Below, piece by piece: positions 8,523 to 20,014 of a stretch of DNA of 32,000 bases. Source of the DNA: Mycoplasma mobile 163K (GTDB lineage: Bacteria; Bacillota_I; Bacilli_A; Mycoplasmatales; Metamycoplasmataceae). A program made the translations under genes and the position numbers. The notes under the pieces were generated by a model, which saw only the letters and a list, made by a program, of their open reading frames with translations, did no database searches and was not told the origin of the DNA. The stretch lies in NCBI RefSeq assembly GCF_000008365.1, contig NC_006908.1, forward strand, positions 210,001 through 242,000, read 5' to 3'. Numbering within the stretch: position 1 is the stretch's first letter; every line of letters begins with the position of its first letter.

Positions 8523-8528
8523 TATAAT
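8523..8528 (+). promoter_or_regulatory. candidate -10 box (TATAAT) for the F1-like ATPase operon
   Basis: GGTATAAT at 8521-8528 in the 124-nt spacer after folD. SD AAAGGAA at 8553-8559, ATG at 8564. The same GGTATAAT context precedes rpsB. Confidence 0.4.
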
Positions 8529-8563
8529 TATCATATTTAGAAAACTTTAAAAGAAAGGAATTT

Positions 8564-10006
8564 ATGGAAAAAAATGCAAGTTTTTCGCAAGAGAAAATAT
8601 CTAGAATAAATTTATCAGAGAAAGTATCAAGCAATTTATCAATATTATTAAAAGTTTTTTCATATATTTTTTATGGAATATTTTTTGCAATTATTATCTC
8701 TTTACAATTTATATCTAACCCAAGTCAAATTGGATCTCCTAATTTGATAATGATTAGCACAATTGTGATGTTTTTATTTATTTTTGTTGCTTTAATAAGT
8801 GTATTTTTTATAAACTTTATTGCTGATTCATATAGAAAAATATGAAAAATAAAATTTTTATCTTTACACATTTTAAATTCTATTTTTTTAGTAATTGCTG
8901 CTATAGTTATGACTTTGTTTAAAATTAGTTCTATCGAAATAATGGCTACTAATTCTAATTTGAATTCATGAATTTTAACATCATCTATTATTATTTTAGT
9001 TCATACTTTAGCAATTACTATAATGCTTACAATTGTGGGGCTACAAACAAGAAAAAGTTTTTCAATCACTTGAATGAAAACTTTATTATCTTTACCAATT
9101 TTCTTATTAGAAATTGTTATAGGATTCTTGCTTTTTGTAGCTTCTTTTAATTTTTTAGAAGGAGCTTCTAGTTTAGCTTTTACAATGCTTTTTATTGCCT
9201 TAGCTGTTTTTATATTCAATTTTATATATGGGATTTTAATTGTTCTTTTTGTTGCTGCTTTTAAAACTCAACTTTTCGGTCAAAAAACAAATAGGGAATT
9301 AGCAAAAATTGAATTAAATAGAGAATATGCATATTTTTCAATGTTTGCAATTAGTATTGTTTTAATGTCAATAGCAATTGTGTTTCAAGTAAATTTATCA
9401 CTTAATGCAATTGGATTTATTGTTAACTTAATTATATTATTGATTTCTCTTTCAACTTATTTGTTTATTATGATCAAAAGAAATATGTCAAAAGCAAATT
9501 TGATTAAGTCAAATGATATTGAATTAAAAAATGCAATTACAAGTAATTTCTTTTCTTGAATTTTTGTATTATCAACAACAATTTTTATATTTTTTGCAAA
9601 TTTCTTATCTGAAAATTCTTCTACAGCCATTATCATTACTTTTGCAAGTTTTTGATTAGTTAAAATAATATTAAATATTGTAATTGGATTTAAATTTCCA
9701 AATATTAAAAACACTATTACTACTTTTATAATTGGAATTGTGATGCTTTTTGTTGTATTATTTGCATTGATTTTATTGACAATACCCGGTTCATCAGCAT
9801 TTAAAATTTTCTTAAGAGATGCATCGATGCTTATAATAATATCAACAATTTTTATAGGATTATCAATAAATTTTGTTCTAACAATACTAACCACTCAAAA
9901 AGCTTATGCTCAAGGTGAAATTAGTAAAAAATTCAAATTGAAAAAAGCAGAAAATATAATAAAACAAGAAGAATTACTAGAAAAAATCACATCTAAAATA
10001 AGCTAG
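8564..10006 (+). CDS. F1-like ATPase cluster gene 1: ~12-TM integral membrane protein (480 aa), candidate X0 membrane sector
   Basis: Track fragments 8564-8845, 9074-9559 and 9740-10006 share one frame and are joined by TGA codons. About 12 hydrophobic segments, e.g. YIFYGIFFAIIISLQFI, IMISTIVMFLFIFVALISVFFINFI, LSLPIFLLEIVIGFLLFVASF, FIIGIVMLFVVLFALILLTI. C-terminal charged tail KKFKLKKAENIIKQEELLEKITSKIS. The stop is 19 nt before gene 2. Confidence 0.8.
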
Positions 10007-10025
10007 TTAATTAAAAGGAGAAATT

Positions 10026-16053: not shown

Positions 16054-17640
16054 ATGAAAAATTTAAAAATAACAGCAATTAAAGATAACTTAATTTTTGT
16101 CGAAGGTGAACATCAGTTTAGCTTTTTGGAAATTATTAAATTCAGCGATAAAGTTGAAGGAGTTGTTTTAAAAGCTAATGACAGAAGTGCAATAGTTGCA
16201 ATTCTAAATGAAGACAAAGATTTAAACTTAACAGTTGGATCACTTGCAGAAGCAACAGGAGAACTTTATAAAATCCCTATTTATGATAATTATTTAGGAT
16301 CAATTATCAATGTTTTGGGTGAATCTTTAGTTAAACAATATGAAAGAACAAATGTTGCTTTGGATAAAAAATATGTTTTTACAGAAGCACAACCAATTTT
16401 TACACGTAGTGCAGTAAATGAACCACTTGTTACAGGAATTACAGTAGTAGATGGTGTTTTACCAGTTGGTAGAGGTCAAAAGGAATTGATTATTGGAGAT
16501 AGAGGAACTGGTAAAACAGCTATTGCTTTGAATGCTATGCTTGCTCAAGAAAATACAGATGTAATTAACATTTTCATTGCTATTGGTAAAAAAAGAGATG
16601 AAATTGTAGAAATTTATGGAACATTTAAAAAACATAATATTTTACATAAATCAATAATTGTTTCAGCAGCAAGTGATGATGCAGTTGCAGCAAGATATTT
16701 AGCTCCTTATGCAGGAATGGCAATTGCTGAATTTTTCCAACAAATTGGTAAGGATGTTTTAGTTGTAATGGATGATTTAACTAATCATGCTGATGCTTAT
16801 AGAGAATTATCTTTACTTGCTGGAATTGCACCAGCAAGAGAAGCATATCCAGGAGATATTTTCTATGTACATTCTAGTTTATTAGAAAGAGGTGGAAAAT
16901 ATGGTCCTGAATTTGGTGGAGGTTCAATAACTATTTTACCGATTGCCCAAACTTTAGCAGGGGATATTAGTGGATATATTCCAACAAATCTAATTTCAAT
17001 TACTGATGGACAAATTTATACTTCAGCAAAATTATTTAATGAAGGTACAAGACCAGCTATTGATGTTAATTTAAGTGTTAGTCGTTTAGGATCGGCAGCT
17101 CAATCAAAATTTATGGCATTTGCTTCTAGTGGACTTAAAAAGATTTACACCGAATATAAATATCTAAAAAGACTTTCATCATTTTCTTCTAAAATTTCTA
17201 ATAGAGATCTTGAAACTTTACAAAAAGGGAAAGCATTTGAATCTTTAATTGATCAAGCTGAGTATGAAGTAATTGATTATGAAACTAGTGCAATTTTATT
17301 TCTATTGCTTAAAAAAGGTTTTTTAAACTTTTACACAGAAAAAACAGAAGCTTTAAAGGTTATCATTGGTGTAATAAAAGTCTTTTTAGCCAAAGATGTT
17401 CTTGGAAGAAAAATGCGTGCAATTTTAGTAGAACATGGAATTGATTCTATTGTTTGAAACCTTTATTTAAATCATATGATTCTTCCGCTTTTAAAATACC
17501 ATTTATTATCAGAACTTCAATATTTAGCAACAAATCGTGAATTTATTAAAAAGTTCAAGGACATTAGAAATGATGGTAGAATTTTATTAGCATACGAGAG
17601 AAAAGGATATGAAAGAGGTATAGCATATGACTACAAATAA
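16054..17640 (+). CDS. F1-like ATPase cluster gene 6: F1 alpha-subunit-like ATPase (528 aa)
   Basis: P-loop [13 protein letters not shown], Walker B region [44 protein letters not shown], arginine-finger context [20 protein letters not shown]. The ORF continues past TGA 17455 to TAA 17638-17640. ATG 16054 is preferred over the track's TTG 16039. Confidence 0.9.
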
Positions 17641-19981
17641 TCTTACAGAATTAGAAATTTTAAATATTAAAAAATATTTAAAAACTGTTAATTTAAATAC
17701 TCTTAGAGCATACGCTAGAAGAAATGTTAAAGATTTTTCAGAAAAATTAATTAAAGTTAAAGTTATTGAAAAAATTGTTGAACATGATAAAAAATTTGAC
17801 AACATTGAAGATAGTATATTTGTTCAAATTTCTTCACAATTTGGAGTTAATTTTGAAACTATTCTTGATGGAAGTTTTTTCTTAGGACAAAAAGCTGCAA
17901 AAGCAATGCCAAAAACATTTGATACTAAAATTATTAGTGAAACTAAATCAGTTCAAAAATTTGAAGAAGTTAAATTTGCAACTTCTTCGAAAACTGAAAA
18001 AATAATTTCAGAAGAAAAAGAAATTTTACATTTAATCGAACAAAGTAAACGTGATAGAGATTTCATAGATAATTTTAGTAAAATTTTAGAAGAAAAAAAT
18101 CTTACAGAGGAACATCAACATATGTCTTGTCAAGTTTGTTATGACCATGAGAAAAAACATTCAGATCATAATGAAAAATATGCAACAGAGCATTGTGATG
18201 CTTGTGTTTACCATGATTTTAGTGATTTAGATCCAGAATTTGTAGCAAGCACATATACTGAAGAAGAAATTATTCATAATTTATTGTTTAAACTTTATTC
18301 AGTGGAACAATTAGCTTTATTTACAATTGACCAGTTAAATGCTTTACTTTTTGCTAGAGGTTTAGGTTTAGAAAAAAATAAAGTAAGAGCAATTAAATCT
18401 TTATTAACTTTACAAACAAGTTATGAATTTATGGAAAAATCTCAAGCAGCTTTATTACCTAAAGTTTCTTTTAACCCAACAAATCCATTAAAACCAATTG
18501 AAGAAAAAGAATTCACAATTTTTGGTGAAATTGTTGAAATTAGATCTCAAGTTTATAAAATAAGAATTGACAAAGCTGAAGAAGAAGTCTTACCAAAAGT
18601 AATTTTTTATGCAGATGTAAATGGAAAAGAAATTCAATTAGAAGTTGCAGATATTTTTGATAAAAATCTAGTCTCAACTTTTGTCTTAGGAAATGAAACA
18701 GGATTAAAAATTGGAACAAAAGTAAAATCAAAAAACCAATCATATGCAATTAAAATTAGTAAAAGATTACTTGGAAGAGTTATTGATCCAATTGGTAAAA
18801 TTTTAGATGATAGTATAGCTACTCCAGTTCATGGAAATATGTATGCTCCTTTAGAAATGCAACATGATAGTGAAGCTACTCGTTATGTTGTAAGTCCAAA
18901 AAATGCAATTCTTGAAACAGGTATTAAAGTAATCGATGTTTTACTTCCGATTCCAAAAGGTGGAAAAACTGGTCTTCTTGGTGGAGCAGGAGTAGGTAAA
19001 ACAGTTATTGTTCAAGAATTGATCAATGCTTTTATTAAATTCCATGATGGAGTTAGTGTTTTTGCAGGAATTGGTGAGAGAATTCGTGAAGGTCATGAGT
19101 TATGAAAAGAAGCAGAAGCTTTAGGATTTTTAAACAAAACAGCCTTTATTTTTGGACAAATGAATGAATCTCCAGGATTAAGATTTAGAAGTGGAATTTC
19201 AGGTGTAAAAGTTGCTGAATATTTCAGAAATAATTTAGGAAAAAGTGTTTTATTATTTATGGATAATATCTTTAGATATGTTCAAGCAGGTAGTGAAATT
19301 TCTTCATTATTAGAAAAAACTCCTTCAGCTGTTGGGTACCAACCTACTTTGTTTAGTGAAATGGGACAATTACAAGAAAGAATCAATTCAACTAAAGATG
19401 GAGACATTACTTCAATTCAAGCTATGTACATTCCAGCTGATGACTTTACTGATCCAGCAGCTGTTGCAGCTTTTGCTCACTTTGATTCAACAATCATTTT
19501 AAGTCGTCAATTAGCAGCAGAAGGTGTTTATCCAGCTATTGATCCATTAGAAAGTAATTCAAAAATGCTTTCAATTAAATATACTTCAAGAGAACATCTA
19601 GACATTGCTAAAAAAACAGTTCAAACTTTAGAAAAAACAAAAACACTTGAAGATATTATCAATATTTTAGGATTTGATGCCTTGAGCGAAGATGATAAAA
19701 AAGTTGTTGAGGTTGGAAGAAGATTGAAATGATTCTTAACACAACCATTTGTTGTTGCAGAAAAATTCAGTGGAGTCCCAGGTAAATTTGTTAGGTTAAA
19801 AGATTCTCTAAAAGGAATCAAAACAATTTTAGATGGTGATTTAAACCACATTCCAGTTTCATACTTCTCTTTTGTTGGAGTTGTTGAAGAAATTATCGAA
19901 AAATTCAATTTAGATGCTAAAAAAGAAGCTTTAAAAAATGAACTAGAACAAAATCAAAAAGATCTTGCTTCAATAATATAA
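17627..19981 (+). CDS. F1-like ATPase cluster gene 7: F1 beta-subunit-like ATPase with ~296-aa N-terminal extension (784 aa)
   Basis: Fragments 17627-19105 and 19160-19732 plus the tail to TAA 19979-19981 are one frame joined by TGA. P-loop [28 protein letters not shown], Walker [37 protein letters not shown] (DELSEED-like), [15 protein letters not shown]. The ATG overlaps the alpha-like gene by 14 nt. Confidence 0.92.
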
Positions 19982-19986
19982 TTTAT

Positions 19987-20014
19987 AAAAAGACCATTGG
20001 TCTTTTTATTTTTT
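19987..20014 (+). terminator. rho-independent terminator of the F1-like ATPase operon
   Basis: AAAAAGACC (19987-19995) pairs with GGTCTTTTT (19999-20007), with a 3-nt loop, followed by ATTTTTT. It starts 6 nt after the beta-like stop. Confidence 0.8.

What the first reader, a model, noticed from the sequence alone, without database searches (positions are those of the whole stretch)
8523..20014. Seven-gene F1-like 'X0' ATPase operon: rotary-ATPase head and stalk genes wired to a 12-TM protein and a giant surface protein instead of F0
SEEN: seven same-strand genes have gaps of 19, 24, 2, 11, 24 and -14 nt. GGAG-type Shine-Dalgarno sites are visible upstream of genes 2-6; gene 1 has AAAGGAA and the beta-like start overlaps the alpha-like gene. 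There is one TATAAT upstream (8523) and one strong terminator downstream (19987-20014). Gene 6 carries alpha-type motifs ([24 protein letters not shown]). Gene 7 carries beta-type catalytic motifs ([34 protein letters not shown]). Gene 3 ends in the gamma C-terminal helix signature (KWNRARK). I see nothing resembling F0 a/b/c or delta/OSCP. In their place are a ~12-TM protein, a 293-aa orphan and a 1158-aa 3-TM surface protein. ESTABLISHED: this composition (alpha-, beta-, gamma-, epsilon-like proteins plus one 12-TM, one 3-TM and one orphan protein) matches the Type 2/Type 3 F1-like ATPase clusters defined in mycoplasmas by Beven et al. 2012. Homologs of the alpha/beta-like pair are part of the internal gliding motor of Mycoplasma mobile, and the Type 3 cluster accounts for a major membrane ATPase activity in M. 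mycoides. The coupling partner, the membrane-sector mechanism and the role in non-gliding species remain open. INFERENCE: catalytic residues look intact, so this is likely an active ATP-driven machine that transmits work through the 12-TM and 3-TM proteins to the cell surface. The long beta-like N-terminal extension and the absence of adjacent MIB-MIP-like protease genes lean toward Type 2. I cannot assign the type without a phylogeny.
Basis: partly seen in the sequence, partly recalled or inferred. Interest (0 to 1): 0.9.

Follow-up and report, generated by a model that had tools for sequence, protein, structure and literature searches.

The report
Mycoplasma mobile gliding-motor ATPase operon

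Summary
Under genetic code 4 (TGA=Trp), seven same-strand genes lie at 8564-19981. The stated gaps, motifs and terminator are all present.

It is not new. The window comes from Mycoplasma mobile 163K, shown by exact protein matches on one 777,079-bp contig. The cluster is the Type 2 F1-like ATPase operon MMOB1610-1670. Four products match chains of the cryo-EM twin-motor structure PDB 9IO5 over their full lengths: beta (all 784 residues identical), alpha, gamma and GliD. NCBIfam places g3, g4, g6 and g7 in the MMOB1630/1640/1660/1670 gliding-ATPase families, above curated cut-offs.

The "293-aa orphan" is GliD, the bridge between the two ATPase units.

The open part is the link from motor to membrane (MMOB1610, MMOB1640, MMOB1650). 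My analyses add:
- MMOB1610 has 12 TM segments with both ends inside the cell, and no conserved membrane-embedded charge.
- MMOB1650 has the same layout in ten homologues, with a ~1,060-aa domain predicted to lie outside the cell.
- The two genes are adjacent in several uncultured Metamycoplasmataceae, sometimes with no F1-like gene nearby.

Interest is low for the finding as stated.

The parts
8523..8528 (+). Candidate -10 box (TATAAT), 35 nt upstream of the g1 start codon. It is the only TATAAT in the 124-nt folD-g1 spacer.
   Evidence: Sequence read. Not statistically supported: 26 exact TATAAT on this strand of the window, and promoter-like sites are not above the shuffle expectation.
8564..10006 (+). 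g1 = MMOB1610 (AAT27647), 480 aa. An integral membrane protein with 12 TM segments and both ends in the cytoplasm. It is the proposed membrane partner of the gamma shaft and the only product with no direct experimental evidence.
   Evidence: Exact database match. 12 hydrophobic segments. K+R count is 32 in even loops and termini against 3 in odd loops. No Pfam or NCBIfam family. Only 12 relatives among 1.84 billion representatives, and every named one (five) is Metamycoplasmataceae; the rest are unnamed metagenomic sequences. Literature: PMC7052211, PMC11864180.
10026..10907 (+). g2 = MMOB1620 = GliD (G1-ATPase subunit D), 293 aa, cytoplasmic. It binds the alpha C-terminal domain, and its dimer bridges the two alpha3beta3gamma units of the twin motor.
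   Evidence: Full-length match to PDB 9IO5 chain R (E = 1.6e-186, 293/293 covered). Role taken from PMC11864180.
10932..11942 (+). g3 = MMOB1630 = G1-gamma, 336 aa. The central shaft (coiled coil plus a globular alpha/beta domain).
   Evidence: NCBIfam NF045862: 423.7 bits against a cut-off of 250. Weak Pfam ATP-synt gamma hit, E = 6.8e-5. Full-length match to 9IO5 chain G.
11945..12541 (+). g4 = MMOB1640, 198 aa. It co-purifies with the twin motor but was not seen in the cryo-EM map. The literature calls it epsilon-like.
   Evidence: NCBIfam NF045864: 223 bits against a cut-off of 100. Exact match to AAT27650. No PDB or Pfam similarity even at E <= 10. AF2 model unusable, pLDDT 34.5. Literature.
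12553..16029 (+). g5 = MMOB1650, 1158 aa. It has a K/R-rich N-terminus with a signal or anchor segment, a ~1,060-aa Cys-free, Asn/Ser/Thr-rich domain predicted to be extracellular, and a TM hairpin at the extreme C-terminus.
   Evidence: Exact match to AAT27651. Hydrophobic segments at 8-26, 1096-1114 and 1140-1158. Lys 3.2% against 8-12% in the cytoplasmic subunits, and the C-terminal ~100 aa are the most conserved part. The architecture is the same in 10 homologues. Triton-soluble together with Gli123/349/521, and retained in gliding heads.
16054..17640 (+). g6 = MMOB1660 = G1-alpha, 528 aa. The non-catalytic subunit, with P-loop GDRGTGKT and the arginine-finger region SVSRLG.
   Evidence: NCBIfam NF045863: 840.1 bits against a cut-off of 600, and below the atpA cut-offs. 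Full-length match to 9IO5 chain D, 528/528 covered. Motifs.
17627..19981 (+). g7 = MMOB1670 = G1-beta, 784 aa. The catalytic subunit, with P-loop [15 protein letters not shown], Walker [11 protein letters not shown] and a DELSEED-type loop DALSEDD. It also has a 299-aa N-terminal extension that binds PGK and the neighbouring ATPase unit. Its start overlaps g6 by 14 nt.
   Evidence: All 784 residues identical to 9IO5 chain A. NCBIfam NF045858: 1209.8 bits against a cut-off of 850. The overlap is conserved in the relative L002. Role of the extension from PMC11864180.
19985..20015 (+). Intrinsic terminator closing the operon: an 11-bp stem (AAAAAGACCAUUGGUCUUUUU core) followed by a T-run.
   Evidence: Terminator scan. 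RNA fold dG -11.3 kcal/mol, z = -4.92, 0 of 200 shuffles as stable.

Best explanation
The region is the Type 2 F1-like ATPase operon of Mycoplasma mobile 163K (MMOB1610-MMOB1670). It encodes the G1-ATPase, the internal motor of this bacterium's gliding machinery.

Shown by published experiment, and confirmed here by sequence identity:
- alpha (g6) and beta (g7) form an alpha3beta3 ring around the gamma shaft (g3).
- GliD (g2) dimers and the beta-specific N-terminal extension tie two such units into a 'twin motor'. The twin motor carries phosphoglycerate kinase and polymerises into chains under the membrane at the cell neck.
- The complex hydrolyses ATP.

Inferred from the structure, not yet observed: catalysis is rotary, as in F1, so gamma turns in 120-degree steps.

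Inferred and still open: the globular foot of gamma, probably together with MMOB1640 (g4), docks on the cytoplasmic loops of the 12-TM protein MMOB1610 (g1). MMOB1610 works as one unit with MMOB1650 (g5). Only a 16-residue loop and the N-terminus of MMOB1650 face the cytoplasm, and its ~1,060-aa domain lies outside the cell. That domain would pass the movement to the Gli521 'crank' and the Gli349 'leg', which pull on sialylated oligosaccharides.

The membrane sector is a mechanical transducer, not an ion path.
For: Identity:
- g1, g4, g5 and the flanking FolD and Pta are exact matches to M. mobile 163K proteins on one 777,079-bp contig.
- g7 is identical at 784 of 784 residues to 9IO5_A. g6, g3 and g2 match 9IO5 chains D, G and R over their full lengths.

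Type:
- NCBIfam Type 2 models are all above their cut-offs: 423.7/250, 223/100, 840.1/600 and 1209.8/850.
- Type 3 models are below theirs: 22.6/95, 354.5/520 and 377.2/570.

Catalytic motifs are intact, and they are the same motifs reported for G1-alpha and G1-beta.

Operon:
- Tight or overlapping junctions, a single strong terminator, and no convincing internal terminator.
- The same seven-gene order in an uncultured relative (L002), M. pulmonis (L009) and M. testudineum (L010).

Motor role: cryo-EM, ATPase kinetics and the three beta conformations (PMC11864180). EYFP fusions of MMOB1620, 1640 and 1650 co-localise with Gli349 and change binding or speed (PMC7052211).

Membrane step (my analyses):
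- g1 has both ends inside the cell, by a 32-to-3 K+R asymmetry between loop sets.
- Its family-wide conserved residues lie in cytoplasmic loops (T242, E245, I249, P379, N380), and no membrane-embedded Asp, Glu or Arg is conserved.
- The g5 architecture is invariant in 10 homologues.
- g1-like and g5-like genes are adjacent in six further metagenomic or MAG contig sets.
- MMOB1650 fractionates with the Gli surface proteins.
Against: - Rotation of G1-gamma has never been observed. The measured turnover is very slow (0.18 per second per beta).
- MMOB1610 has never been detected in the machinery.
- MMOB1640 gave no density in the map.
- MMOB1650 was first found in the Triton-insoluble 'internal' structure. 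Beven 2012 drew its bulk in the cytoplasm.
- A C-terminal EYFP fusion of MMOB1650 fluoresced. That is awkward if the C-terminus is outside the cell.
- My structure models of g1 and g4 were unusable, so I tested no interface.
- In three lineages the g1/g5 pair has no F1-like gene within the 11-15 kb loci read. The pair could therefore have a function that does not need the motor.
Confidence: 0.9

Rival explanations
1. The membrane genes g1 and g5 are co-transcribed with the motor but are not in its force path. They form an independent membrane module, for example for surface assembly or a glycoconjugate-related function, and the motor's force reaches Gli521 by another route.
For: In three divergent lineages the g1-like/g5-like pair sits behind a GT2 glycosyltransferase and a ~600-aa exported protein, with no F1-like gene in the 11-15 kb loci read (L007/L008, L013/L014, L015). 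MMOB1610 has never been detected in the machinery. Purified twin motors lack both proteins.
Against: The pair is in or beside a Type 2 alpha/beta cluster in seven other loci (window, L002, L009, L010, L006, L011, L012). MMOB1650 co-localises with Gli349 and is retained in ATP-reactivatable gliding heads. Detergent extraction would be expected to strip membrane subunits from the purified motor. The layout C genomes are incomplete, so an F1-like cluster elsewhere in them cannot be excluded.
Confidence: 0.15
2. It is an ion-translocating F-type ATPase in which g1, g2 and g5 replace F0. ATP hydrolysis would pump H+ or Na+ (the first hypothesis of Beven 2012).
For: Close F1 homology of alpha, beta and gamma. 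A 12-TM protein could in principle mimic a c-ring or an a-subunit; an a+c fusion origin has been suggested.
Against: No sequence similarity of g1 to the a or c subunits. No membrane-embedded Asp, Glu or Arg is conserved in the 13-member g1 family. A single 12-TM polypeptide fixed in a chain of dimerised motors cannot act as a freely rotating ring against a separate stator. M. mobile has a genuine Type 1 operon elsewhere (MMOB2090 and MMOB2110). The motor localises to the gliding machinery, whereas Type 1 and Type 3 alpha subunits are spread through the cell.
Confidence: 0.03
3. It is a protein-translocation ATPase, analogous to FliI/FliJ or T3SS. It would export or assemble gliding-surface proteins rather than generate the stroke (the second hypothesis of Beven 2012, after Nakane).
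For: Alpha and beta share ancestry with FliI/SctN (182-215 bits to those models). A 12-TM protein resembles a permease. In the rearranged MAG clusters, exported proteins, an LRR_5 lipoprotein and (in L006 and L012) SecDF lie between or next to the ATPase and g1/g5 genes.
Against: Scores to the export-ATPase models are far below their cut-offs and below the F1 models. The ring is a heterohexamer with a gamma-type shaft, as in F1. About 476 motor particles per cell, arranged in chains, is unlike an export gate. Gliding ghosts and gliding heads move on ATP addition without protein synthesis.
Confidence: 0.04
4. It is a Type 3 F1-like X0 ATPase, the partner of the MIB-MIP antibody-cleavage system.
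For: The same seven-gene logic and a common ancestry.
Against: Type 3 NCBIfam models all score below their cut-offs. Beta has the Type 2-specific 299-aa N-terminal extension. There are no MIB or MIP genes in the window. M. mobile's separate Type 3 locus is elsewhere in the genome (MMOB2970).
Confidence: 0.01

Closest known systems
G1-ATPase / Type 2 F1-like ATPase of Mycoplasma mobile (MMOB1610-1670; PDB 9IO5; Toyonaga et al. 2021 and 2025)
   Same: It is the same locus. Beta is identical at all 784 residues. Alpha, gamma and GliD match the PDB chains over their full lengths. g1, g4 and g5 are exact matches to AAT27647, AAT27650 and AAT27651.
   Different: Nothing differs. GliE (MMOB3660) and PGK (MMOB4530), which complete the twin motor, are encoded outside the window.
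Type 3 F1-like X0 ATPase of mycoplasmas (MSC_0618-0624 / MMCAP2_0575-0581), required for MIB-MIP function
   Same: [quoted passage not shown]
   Different: Only alpha and beta are clearly alignable, and the Type 3 HMMs score below their cut-offs. Type 3 beta lacks the N-terminal extension. Type 3 protein 2 is 19 kDa, whereas GliD is 293 aa. Protein 5 has a reportedly different predicted fold. The functional partner is MIB-MIP rather than the Gli legs.
Genuine bacterial F1F0 ATP synthase (Type 1, atpIBEFHAGDC)
   Same: The alpha3beta3gamma architecture, P-loops, catalytic Glu, arginine finger and DELSEED-type loop. Beta scores 520.9 bits on the atpD model, and the best non-self PDB hits are F1 beta subunits (E ~1e-130).
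   Different: There are no a, b, c or delta genes. Alpha is below the atpA cut-offs and reportedly lacks the H1 helix that binds the peripheral stalk. The R1 heads are dimerised through GliD and the beta N-terminal domain. The enzyme only hydrolyses ATP, and slowly. The membrane partner has no conserved ion-binding residue.
Flagellar/T3SS export ATPase complex (FliI6-FliJ, SctN-SctO)
   Same: A distant homologue with a hexameric ring and a central coiled-coil shaft, used for something other than ATP synthesis (discussion; 182-215 bits).
   Different: That ring is a homohexamer and it couples to an export gate. Here the scores are far below those families' cut-offs.

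Membership tests
Type 2 F1-like ATPase (G1-ATPase, MMOB1610-1670 type) | The alpha-like subunit reaches the curated cut-off of NF045863 (MMOB1660 family) | tested here: met
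   840.1 bits against a cut-off of 600, covering model positions 1-515 of 515. Full-length match to 9IO5_D.
Type 2 F1-like ATPase (G1-ATPase, MMOB1610-1670 type) | The beta-like subunit has a 200-300-aa N-terminal extension and reaches the NF045858 cut-off (MMOB1670 family) | tested here: met
   1209.8 bits against a cut-off of 850. The F1 beta homology starts at residue ~300. All 784 residues are identical to 9IO5_A.
Type 2 F1-like ATPase (G1-ATPase, MMOB1610-1670 type) | A gamma-like shaft subunit of the MMOB1630 family (NF045862) | tested here: met
   423.7 bits against a cut-off of 250. Full-length match to 9IO5_G.
Type 2 F1-like ATPase (G1-ATPase, MMOB1610-1670 type) | An MMOB1640-family protein (NF045864) encoded directly after gamma | tested here: met
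   223 bits against a cut-off of 100. A 2-nt gap after g3.
Type 2 F1-like ATPase (G1-ATPase, MMOB1610-1670 type) | The seven-gene order (12-TM, cytoplasmic protein, gamma, g4, large SP+2TM protein, alpha, beta) is conserved in related species | tested here: met
   Window. L002 uncultured relative, 54-84% identity per gene. M. pulmonis L009 and M. testudineum L010.
Type 2 F1-like ATPase (G1-ATPase, MMOB1610-1670 type) | A genuine Type 1 atp operon coexists elsewhere in the genome | not testable with these tools
   It lies outside the 32-kb window. The literature gives MMOB2090 (gamma) and MMOB2110 (alpha) as Type 1 and MMOB2970 as Type 3 alpha.
Type 2 F1-like ATPase (G1-ATPase, MMOB1610-1670 type) | Part of the gliding machinery (localisation, ATP-driven movement) | not testable with these tools
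   Experimental and taken from the literature: PMC7052211, PMC6935860, PMC8406192 and PMC11864180.
Type 3 F1-like X0 ATPase (MSC_0618-0624 type) | Alpha, beta and gamma reach the curated cut-offs of NF045936, NF045934 and NF045933 | tested here: not met
   354.5 against 520, 377.2 against 570, and 22.6 against 95.
Type 3 F1-like X0 ATPase (MSC_0618-0624 type) | Genetic linkage to MIB-MIP genes | tested here: not met
   The neighbours are a folate ECF S-component, an OppF-related protein, ValRS, DUF2188 and FolD upstream, and Pta, AckA, YitT, DnaB, L9, a DHH-family protein, PepA and S2 downstream.
Genuine F1F0 ATP synthase (Type 1) | Alpha reaches the atpA equivalog cut-offs | tested here: not met
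   TIGR00962: 402.1 against 484.45. NF009884: 448.5 against 554.
Genuine F1F0 ATP synthase (Type 1) | Beta reaches the atpD equivalog cut-off | tested here: met
   TIGR01039: 520.9 against 462.85. The Type 2 model outscores it more than two-fold (1209.8), and the match covers only residues 300-759.
Genuine F1F0 ATP synthase (Type 1) | F0 a, b and c subunits and delta/OSCP are encoded in the operon | tested here: not met
   g1, g2 and g5 hit no Pfam or NCBIfam family at E <= 0.01. The g1 profile finds only 12 relatives, none assigned to any NCBIfam family.
Genuine F1F0 ATP synthase (Type 1) | A conserved membrane-embedded carboxylate or arginine for ion translocation | tested here: not met
   In the 13-sequence g1 family the positions conserved at >= 85% are F40, S79, N105, L109, F166, T242, E245, I249, P379 and N380. 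The only charged one, E245, lies in a cytoplasmic loop.
F1 epsilon subunit (for g4 / MMOB1640) | Sequence or fold similarity to epsilon (N-terminal beta-sandwich plus C-terminal helical hairpin) | tested here: inconclusive
   No Pfam or PDB hit even at E <= 10. The AF2 model has pLDDT 34.5 and is unusable. Its secondary-structure order (strands in residues 1-110, helices in 111-196) is compatible with epsilon but of low confidence. The epsilon-like label comes from Beven 2012 and PMC12994834.

The most novel reading that the evidence does not exclude
MMOB1610 (12 TM) and MMOB1650 (giant ectodomain plus C-terminal TM hairpin) form one evolutionarily separable membrane module, which G1-type motors plug into.

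The module also occurs on its own, next to a GT2 glycosyltransferase and a ~600-aa exported protein, in uncultured Metamycoplasmataceae. In other MAGs it sits in a rearranged Type 2 cluster that also encodes a giant LRR_5 lipoprotein.

On this reading the ~1,060-aa MMOB1650 ectodomain is the missing link across the membrane from the gamma shaft to Gli521. Different lineages would couple the same motor and module to different surface effectors: Gli legs, LRR lipoproteins, and MIB-MIP in the Type 3 sister system.
Probability: 0.3. Interest if true: 0.55.

Novelty: already known. Interest (0 to 1): 0.2.

Why it matters
The locus matters biologically. It is the clearest case of a rotary F1-type ATPase re-used as a motility motor, and the way its motion crosses the membrane is still unsolved.

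As a scan finding it adds nothing. The operon, its Type 2 assignment, its motifs and four of its seven protein structures are already published.

The useful residue of this check is a set of leads on the unsolved part:
- a firm topology for MMOB1610 and MMOB1650
- the absence of an ion-path signature in MMOB1610
- conserved cytoplasmic loop residues that are candidate docking sites for gamma and MMOB1640
- comparative evidence that the two membrane genes travel together
- Type 2 clusters in at least four uncultured lineages beyond the four species usually cited

Tried and rejected
1. ORF calling with table 11 fragments every gene at TGA. I replaced it with table 4.
2. AF2 models of g4 (alignment A1, 2 sequences) and g1 (A2, 2 sequences) came out at mean pLDDT 34.5 and 44.9. 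That is too poor to use, so I ran no fold search and make no fold claim.
3. The word-index homologue search found only the query itself for g5, and one relative each for g1 and g4.
4. The genome-contig scan with g4-derived patterns returned nothing. It did not even return the source genome, so that collection probably lacks it.
Whether layout B keeps g2 and g3 is therefore unknown.
6. Epsilon homology of g4 by Pfam or PDB at E <= 10: nothing relevant. The only weak hits were potassium-channel domains, E ~0.09.
7. Rfam and tRNA scans of the window found nothing.
8. I considered and rejected the canonical ATP synthase, Type 3 and ion-pump readings (see the membership tests).

Full report
OBSERVATION

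The window is ~25% G+C. The table-11 ORF list breaks all long genes. Re-calling with genetic code 4 (TGA=Trp) gives seven contiguous + strand genes between 8564 and 19981. Every quoted motif is present at a single site.

GGAG-type ribosome-binding sites precede g2-g5. g1 and g6 have AAAGGAA. g6 starts at ATG 16054, which gives 528 aa, the length of the solved chain.

The TATAAT at 8523 is the only one in the 124-nt spacer after folD. The hexamer occurs 26 times on this strand of the window, and promoter-like sites are not enriched over shuffles (74 found, 83 expected). It is a reasonable promoter candidate but not a statistically supported one.

The terminator at 19985-20009 plus a T-run is strong: dG -11.3 kcal/mol, z = -4.9, and 0 of 200 shuffles fold as well.

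Hydropathy gives 12 TM segments in g1 and three hydrophobic segments in g5.

WHAT IT IS

NCBIfam places g3, g4, g6 and g7 in the MMOB1630, MMOB1640, MMOB1660 and MMOB1670 'gliding motility ATPase complex' families. All four are above the curated cut-offs (423.7/250, 223/100, 840.1/600, 1209.8/850). The Type 3 models (MSC_0622, MSC_0619, MSC_0618) fall below theirs.

g7 is identical at all 784 residues to PDB 9IO5 chain A, 'G1-ATPase subunit beta'. g6, g3 and g2 match chains D (alpha), G (gamma) and R (subunit D) over their full lengths.

Exact-sequence look-ups identify g1, g4 and g5 as AAT27647, AAT27650 and AAT27651 of Mycoplasma mobile 163K. The flanking FolD and Pta are also exact matches, all on one 777,079-bp contig.

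The window is therefore M. mobile, and the cluster is MMOB1610-MMOB1670.

WHAT IS PUBLISHED

Beven et al. 2012 (PMC3369863) defined the seven-gene Type 2 and Type 3 'F1-like X0' clusters.

Toyonaga et al. 2021 and 2025 (PMC8406192, PMC11864180) reported the following:
- MMOB1660, 1670 and 1630 form an alpha3beta3gamma unit, the G1-ATPase.
- GliD (MMOB1620) dimers and the 299-aa beta N-terminal extension join two units into a 1.5-MDa twin motor.
- The twin motor binds PGK (MMOB4530) and GliE (MMOB3660). Both are encoded elsewhere in the genome.
- Three beta conformations, with bound nucleotides, suggest F1-type rotary catalysis.
- MMOB1640 co-purifies but gave no density.
- MMOB1610 and MMOB1650 are proposed, not shown, to receive the motion from gamma at the membrane and pass it to Gli521 and Gli349.

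Tulum et al. 2020 (PMC7052211) showed that EYFP fusions of MMOB1620, 1640 and 1650 co-localise with Gli349 and alter binding or speed. They state that there is no direct evidence for MMOB1610.

MMOB1650 is retained in ATP-reactivatable gliding heads (PMC6935860). It is Triton-soluble together with Gli123, Gli349 and Gli521 (bioRxiv 2022.09.07.507039).

A 2026 paper (PMC12994834) shows that the Type 3 sister system is required for MIB-MIP antibody cleavage. [quoted passage not shown]

Both fail to refute.

1. Canonical clade. Alpha is below the canonical atpA cut-offs. Beta, although above the atpD cut-off, is outscored more than two-fold by the Type 2 model. The literature places a genuine Type 1 operon elsewhere in the genome.

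2. Synteny. Genes 1, 2, 4 and 5 are syntenic with the F1-like genes in three other genomes:
- An uncultured close relative (L002, Logan SRR26596556). Per-gene identity is 54, 71, 78, 65, 58, 84 and 75% for g1-g7. The flanks valS, DUF2188, folD and pta are the same, and the -14 alpha/beta overlap is conserved.
- M. pulmonis (L009).
- M. testudineum (L010).

Four-species alignments give 23-26% identity to the M. pulmonis and M. testudineum orthologues for g1 and g5, against 52-59% for alpha and beta.

MY OWN ANALYSES OF THE UNSOLVED PART

g1 (MMOB1610):
- It has both ends in the cytoplasm. K+R totals 32 in the even loops and termini against 3 in the odd loops.
- An exhaustive profile search of 1.84 billion representatives finds only 12 family members. 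Every named one is Metamycoplasmataceae (M. pulmonis, M. testudineum and three MAGs); the rest are unnamed metagenomic sequences. None is assigned to any NCBIfam family.
- Across the 13 sequences (the 12 representatives plus P0008) the conserved positions are F40, S79, N105, L109, F166, T242, E245, I249, P379 and N380. No membrane-embedded Asp, Glu or Arg is conserved, and the best-conserved stretches are cytoplasmic loops 6 and 10.
- This argues against an F0-like ion path and points to candidate docking sites for gamma and MMOB1640. That last step is inference.

g5 (MMOB1650):
- All ten homologues examined share one architecture: a K/R-rich N-terminus with a hydrophobic segment, ~1,000 residues that are Cys-free or nearly so (one Cys, in L015), and two TM segments at the very C-terminus joined by a short K/R-rich loop.
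- By the positive-inside rule, the large domain lies outside the cell.
- Its composition (Lys 3.2%, Asn+Ser+Thr 33%) is unlike the cytoplasmic subunits (Lys 8-12%).
- The C-terminal hairpin is its most conserved part, ~80% against a 58% mean.
It goes against Beven's 2012 cytoplasmic drawing and NCBI's 'internal complex' family name. It remains a prediction, and the fluorescent C-terminal EYFP fusion fits it awkwardly.

g4 (MMOB1640): I could not confirm the epsilon-like label. There is no Pfam or PDB signal even at E <= 10, and the AF2 model is unusable.

COMPARATIVE SIDE RESULT

The more distant g1-family members are not in the canonical layout.

Layout B, in three MAGs (L006, L011, L012):
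- The order is (g4)-alpha-beta, one or two small exported proteins, a 1,150-1,330-aa LRR_5 lipoprotein, a ~470-530-aa exported protein, g1-like, then g5-like.
- Their alpha and beta pass the Type 2 cut-offs: 831 against 600, and 1048-1057 against 850.

Layout C, in three further contig sets (L007/L008, L013/L014, L015):
- The order is GT2 glycosyltransferase, a ~600-aa exported protein, g1-like, then g5-like. No F1-like gene lies within the loci.

So g1 and g5, which are separated by three genes in M. mobile, are immediate neighbours in six other contig sets. This supports the view that they act as one membrane module. It also keeps alive a rival reading in which that module has a role of its own.

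MECHANISM I COMMIT TO

- Shown: ATP hydrolysis in the alpha3beta3 ring.
- Inferred from structure: this turns gamma.
- Inferred: the gamma foot, with MMOB1640, acts on the cytoplasmic loops of MMOB1610.
- Inferred: MMOB1610 and the TM hairpin of MMOB1650 pass the movement to the MMOB1650 ectodomain, and from there to the Gli521 crank and the Gli349 leg.
- Shown: GliD and the beta extension hold pairs and chains of motors in register.

Confidence in the identity is near certainty. Confidence in the membrane steps is moderate.

VERDICT

The description is accurate and the classification is correct, but the system is already known and structurally characterised. Interest as a scan finding is low (0.2). 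The leads on the membrane module and the variant cluster layouts are the only new material, and they concern other loci.

Noticed in passing
L006 1-14903; L011 1-14706; L012 1-11654 (MAGs GCA_051647165.1, GCA_051654165.1, GCA_051655445.1): A rearranged Type 2 cluster in uncultured Metamycoplasmataceae. The order is (g4)-alpha-beta, small exported protein(s), a giant LRR_5 lipoprotein (1147-1329 aa, with a lipobox Cys), a ~470-530-aa exported protein, g1-like, then g5-like. Alpha and beta pass the curated Type 2 cut-offs. The LRR lipoprotein could be that lineage's surface effector. I did not find this layout in the papers I read.
   Followed up: partly
L007/L008 549-9077; L013 525-8343; L014 3-6390 (cut at the contig start); L015 3081-11179: The g1-like/g5-like gene pair occurs without any F1-like gene in the locus. 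It is always preceded by a GT2 glycosyltransferase and a ~585-608-aa exported protein, and is flanked by housekeeping genes (DnaK, YidC, LepA, PepA). Either the motor genes lie elsewhere in these genomes, or the membrane pair has an independent function.
   Followed up: partly
L001-L005 (Logan SRR26596589, SRR26596556, SRR26596557, SRR26596586, SRR26596566): An uncultured close relative of M. mobile, seen in five runs of one SRA accession series. It has GC 25.8% and carries the complete syntenic operon with the same flanks. Per-gene protein identity is 54-84%, so it looks like a separate species with a G1 motor. I did not look up the sample source.
   Followed up: partly
window 18113-18220 (g7 residues 163-198): The only four cysteines in all seven products form a His-rich CxxC-x18-CxxC motif ([36 protein letters not shown]) in the beta N-terminal extension. 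This looks like a zinc-binding knuckle. It is conserved in the L002 relative but absent from M. pulmonis, M. testudineum and the one MAG beta checked (L006). The main texts of the two structure papers mention neither zinc nor cysteine.
   Followed up: partly
window 7394-7567 (+): A small 57-aa DUF2188 gene lies between valS and folD, with an AAGGAG ribosome-binding site. It was missed by the 60-aa ORF threshold and contains a TGA codon. It is 84% identical to the gene at the same position in L002. A DUF2188 gene also lies just upstream of the M. testudineum cluster, on the opposite strand.
   Followed up: yes
window 20100-22254 (+): pta and ackA (acetyl-phosphate to ATP) lie immediately downstream of the motor operon. 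pta is in the same position in L002 and in M. pulmonis (L009). This may be coincidence, or an ATP-supply neighbourhood in line with PGK being built into the motor.
   Followed up: no
window 23805-27597 (-); L011 17176-20871: The GdpP-like DHH protein, L9 and DnaB form a block ~4 kb downstream of the operon in M. mobile. The same block lies ~2.5 kb downstream of the rearranged cluster in MAG L011. This suggests the cluster was rearranged in place rather than moved.
   Followed up: no
window 2201-4753 (+): An 850-aa protein is annotated in GenBank as an oligopeptide ABC transporter ATP-binding protein. RefSeq calls it a 'MAG1360 family OppF-related protein' and starts it 13 codons later (837 aa). 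The longer form overlaps the upstream folate ECF S-component gene by 14 nt.
   Followed up: no
window ~22250-22700: Coding strand and GC skew both flip at ~22.27 kb, where ackA (+) converges on a 131-aa membrane ORF with no family (22285-22680, -). Cumulative GC skew peaks here. This is probably a local effect of gene orientation. There are no tRNA or Rfam hits anywhere in the 32 kb.
   Followed up: no
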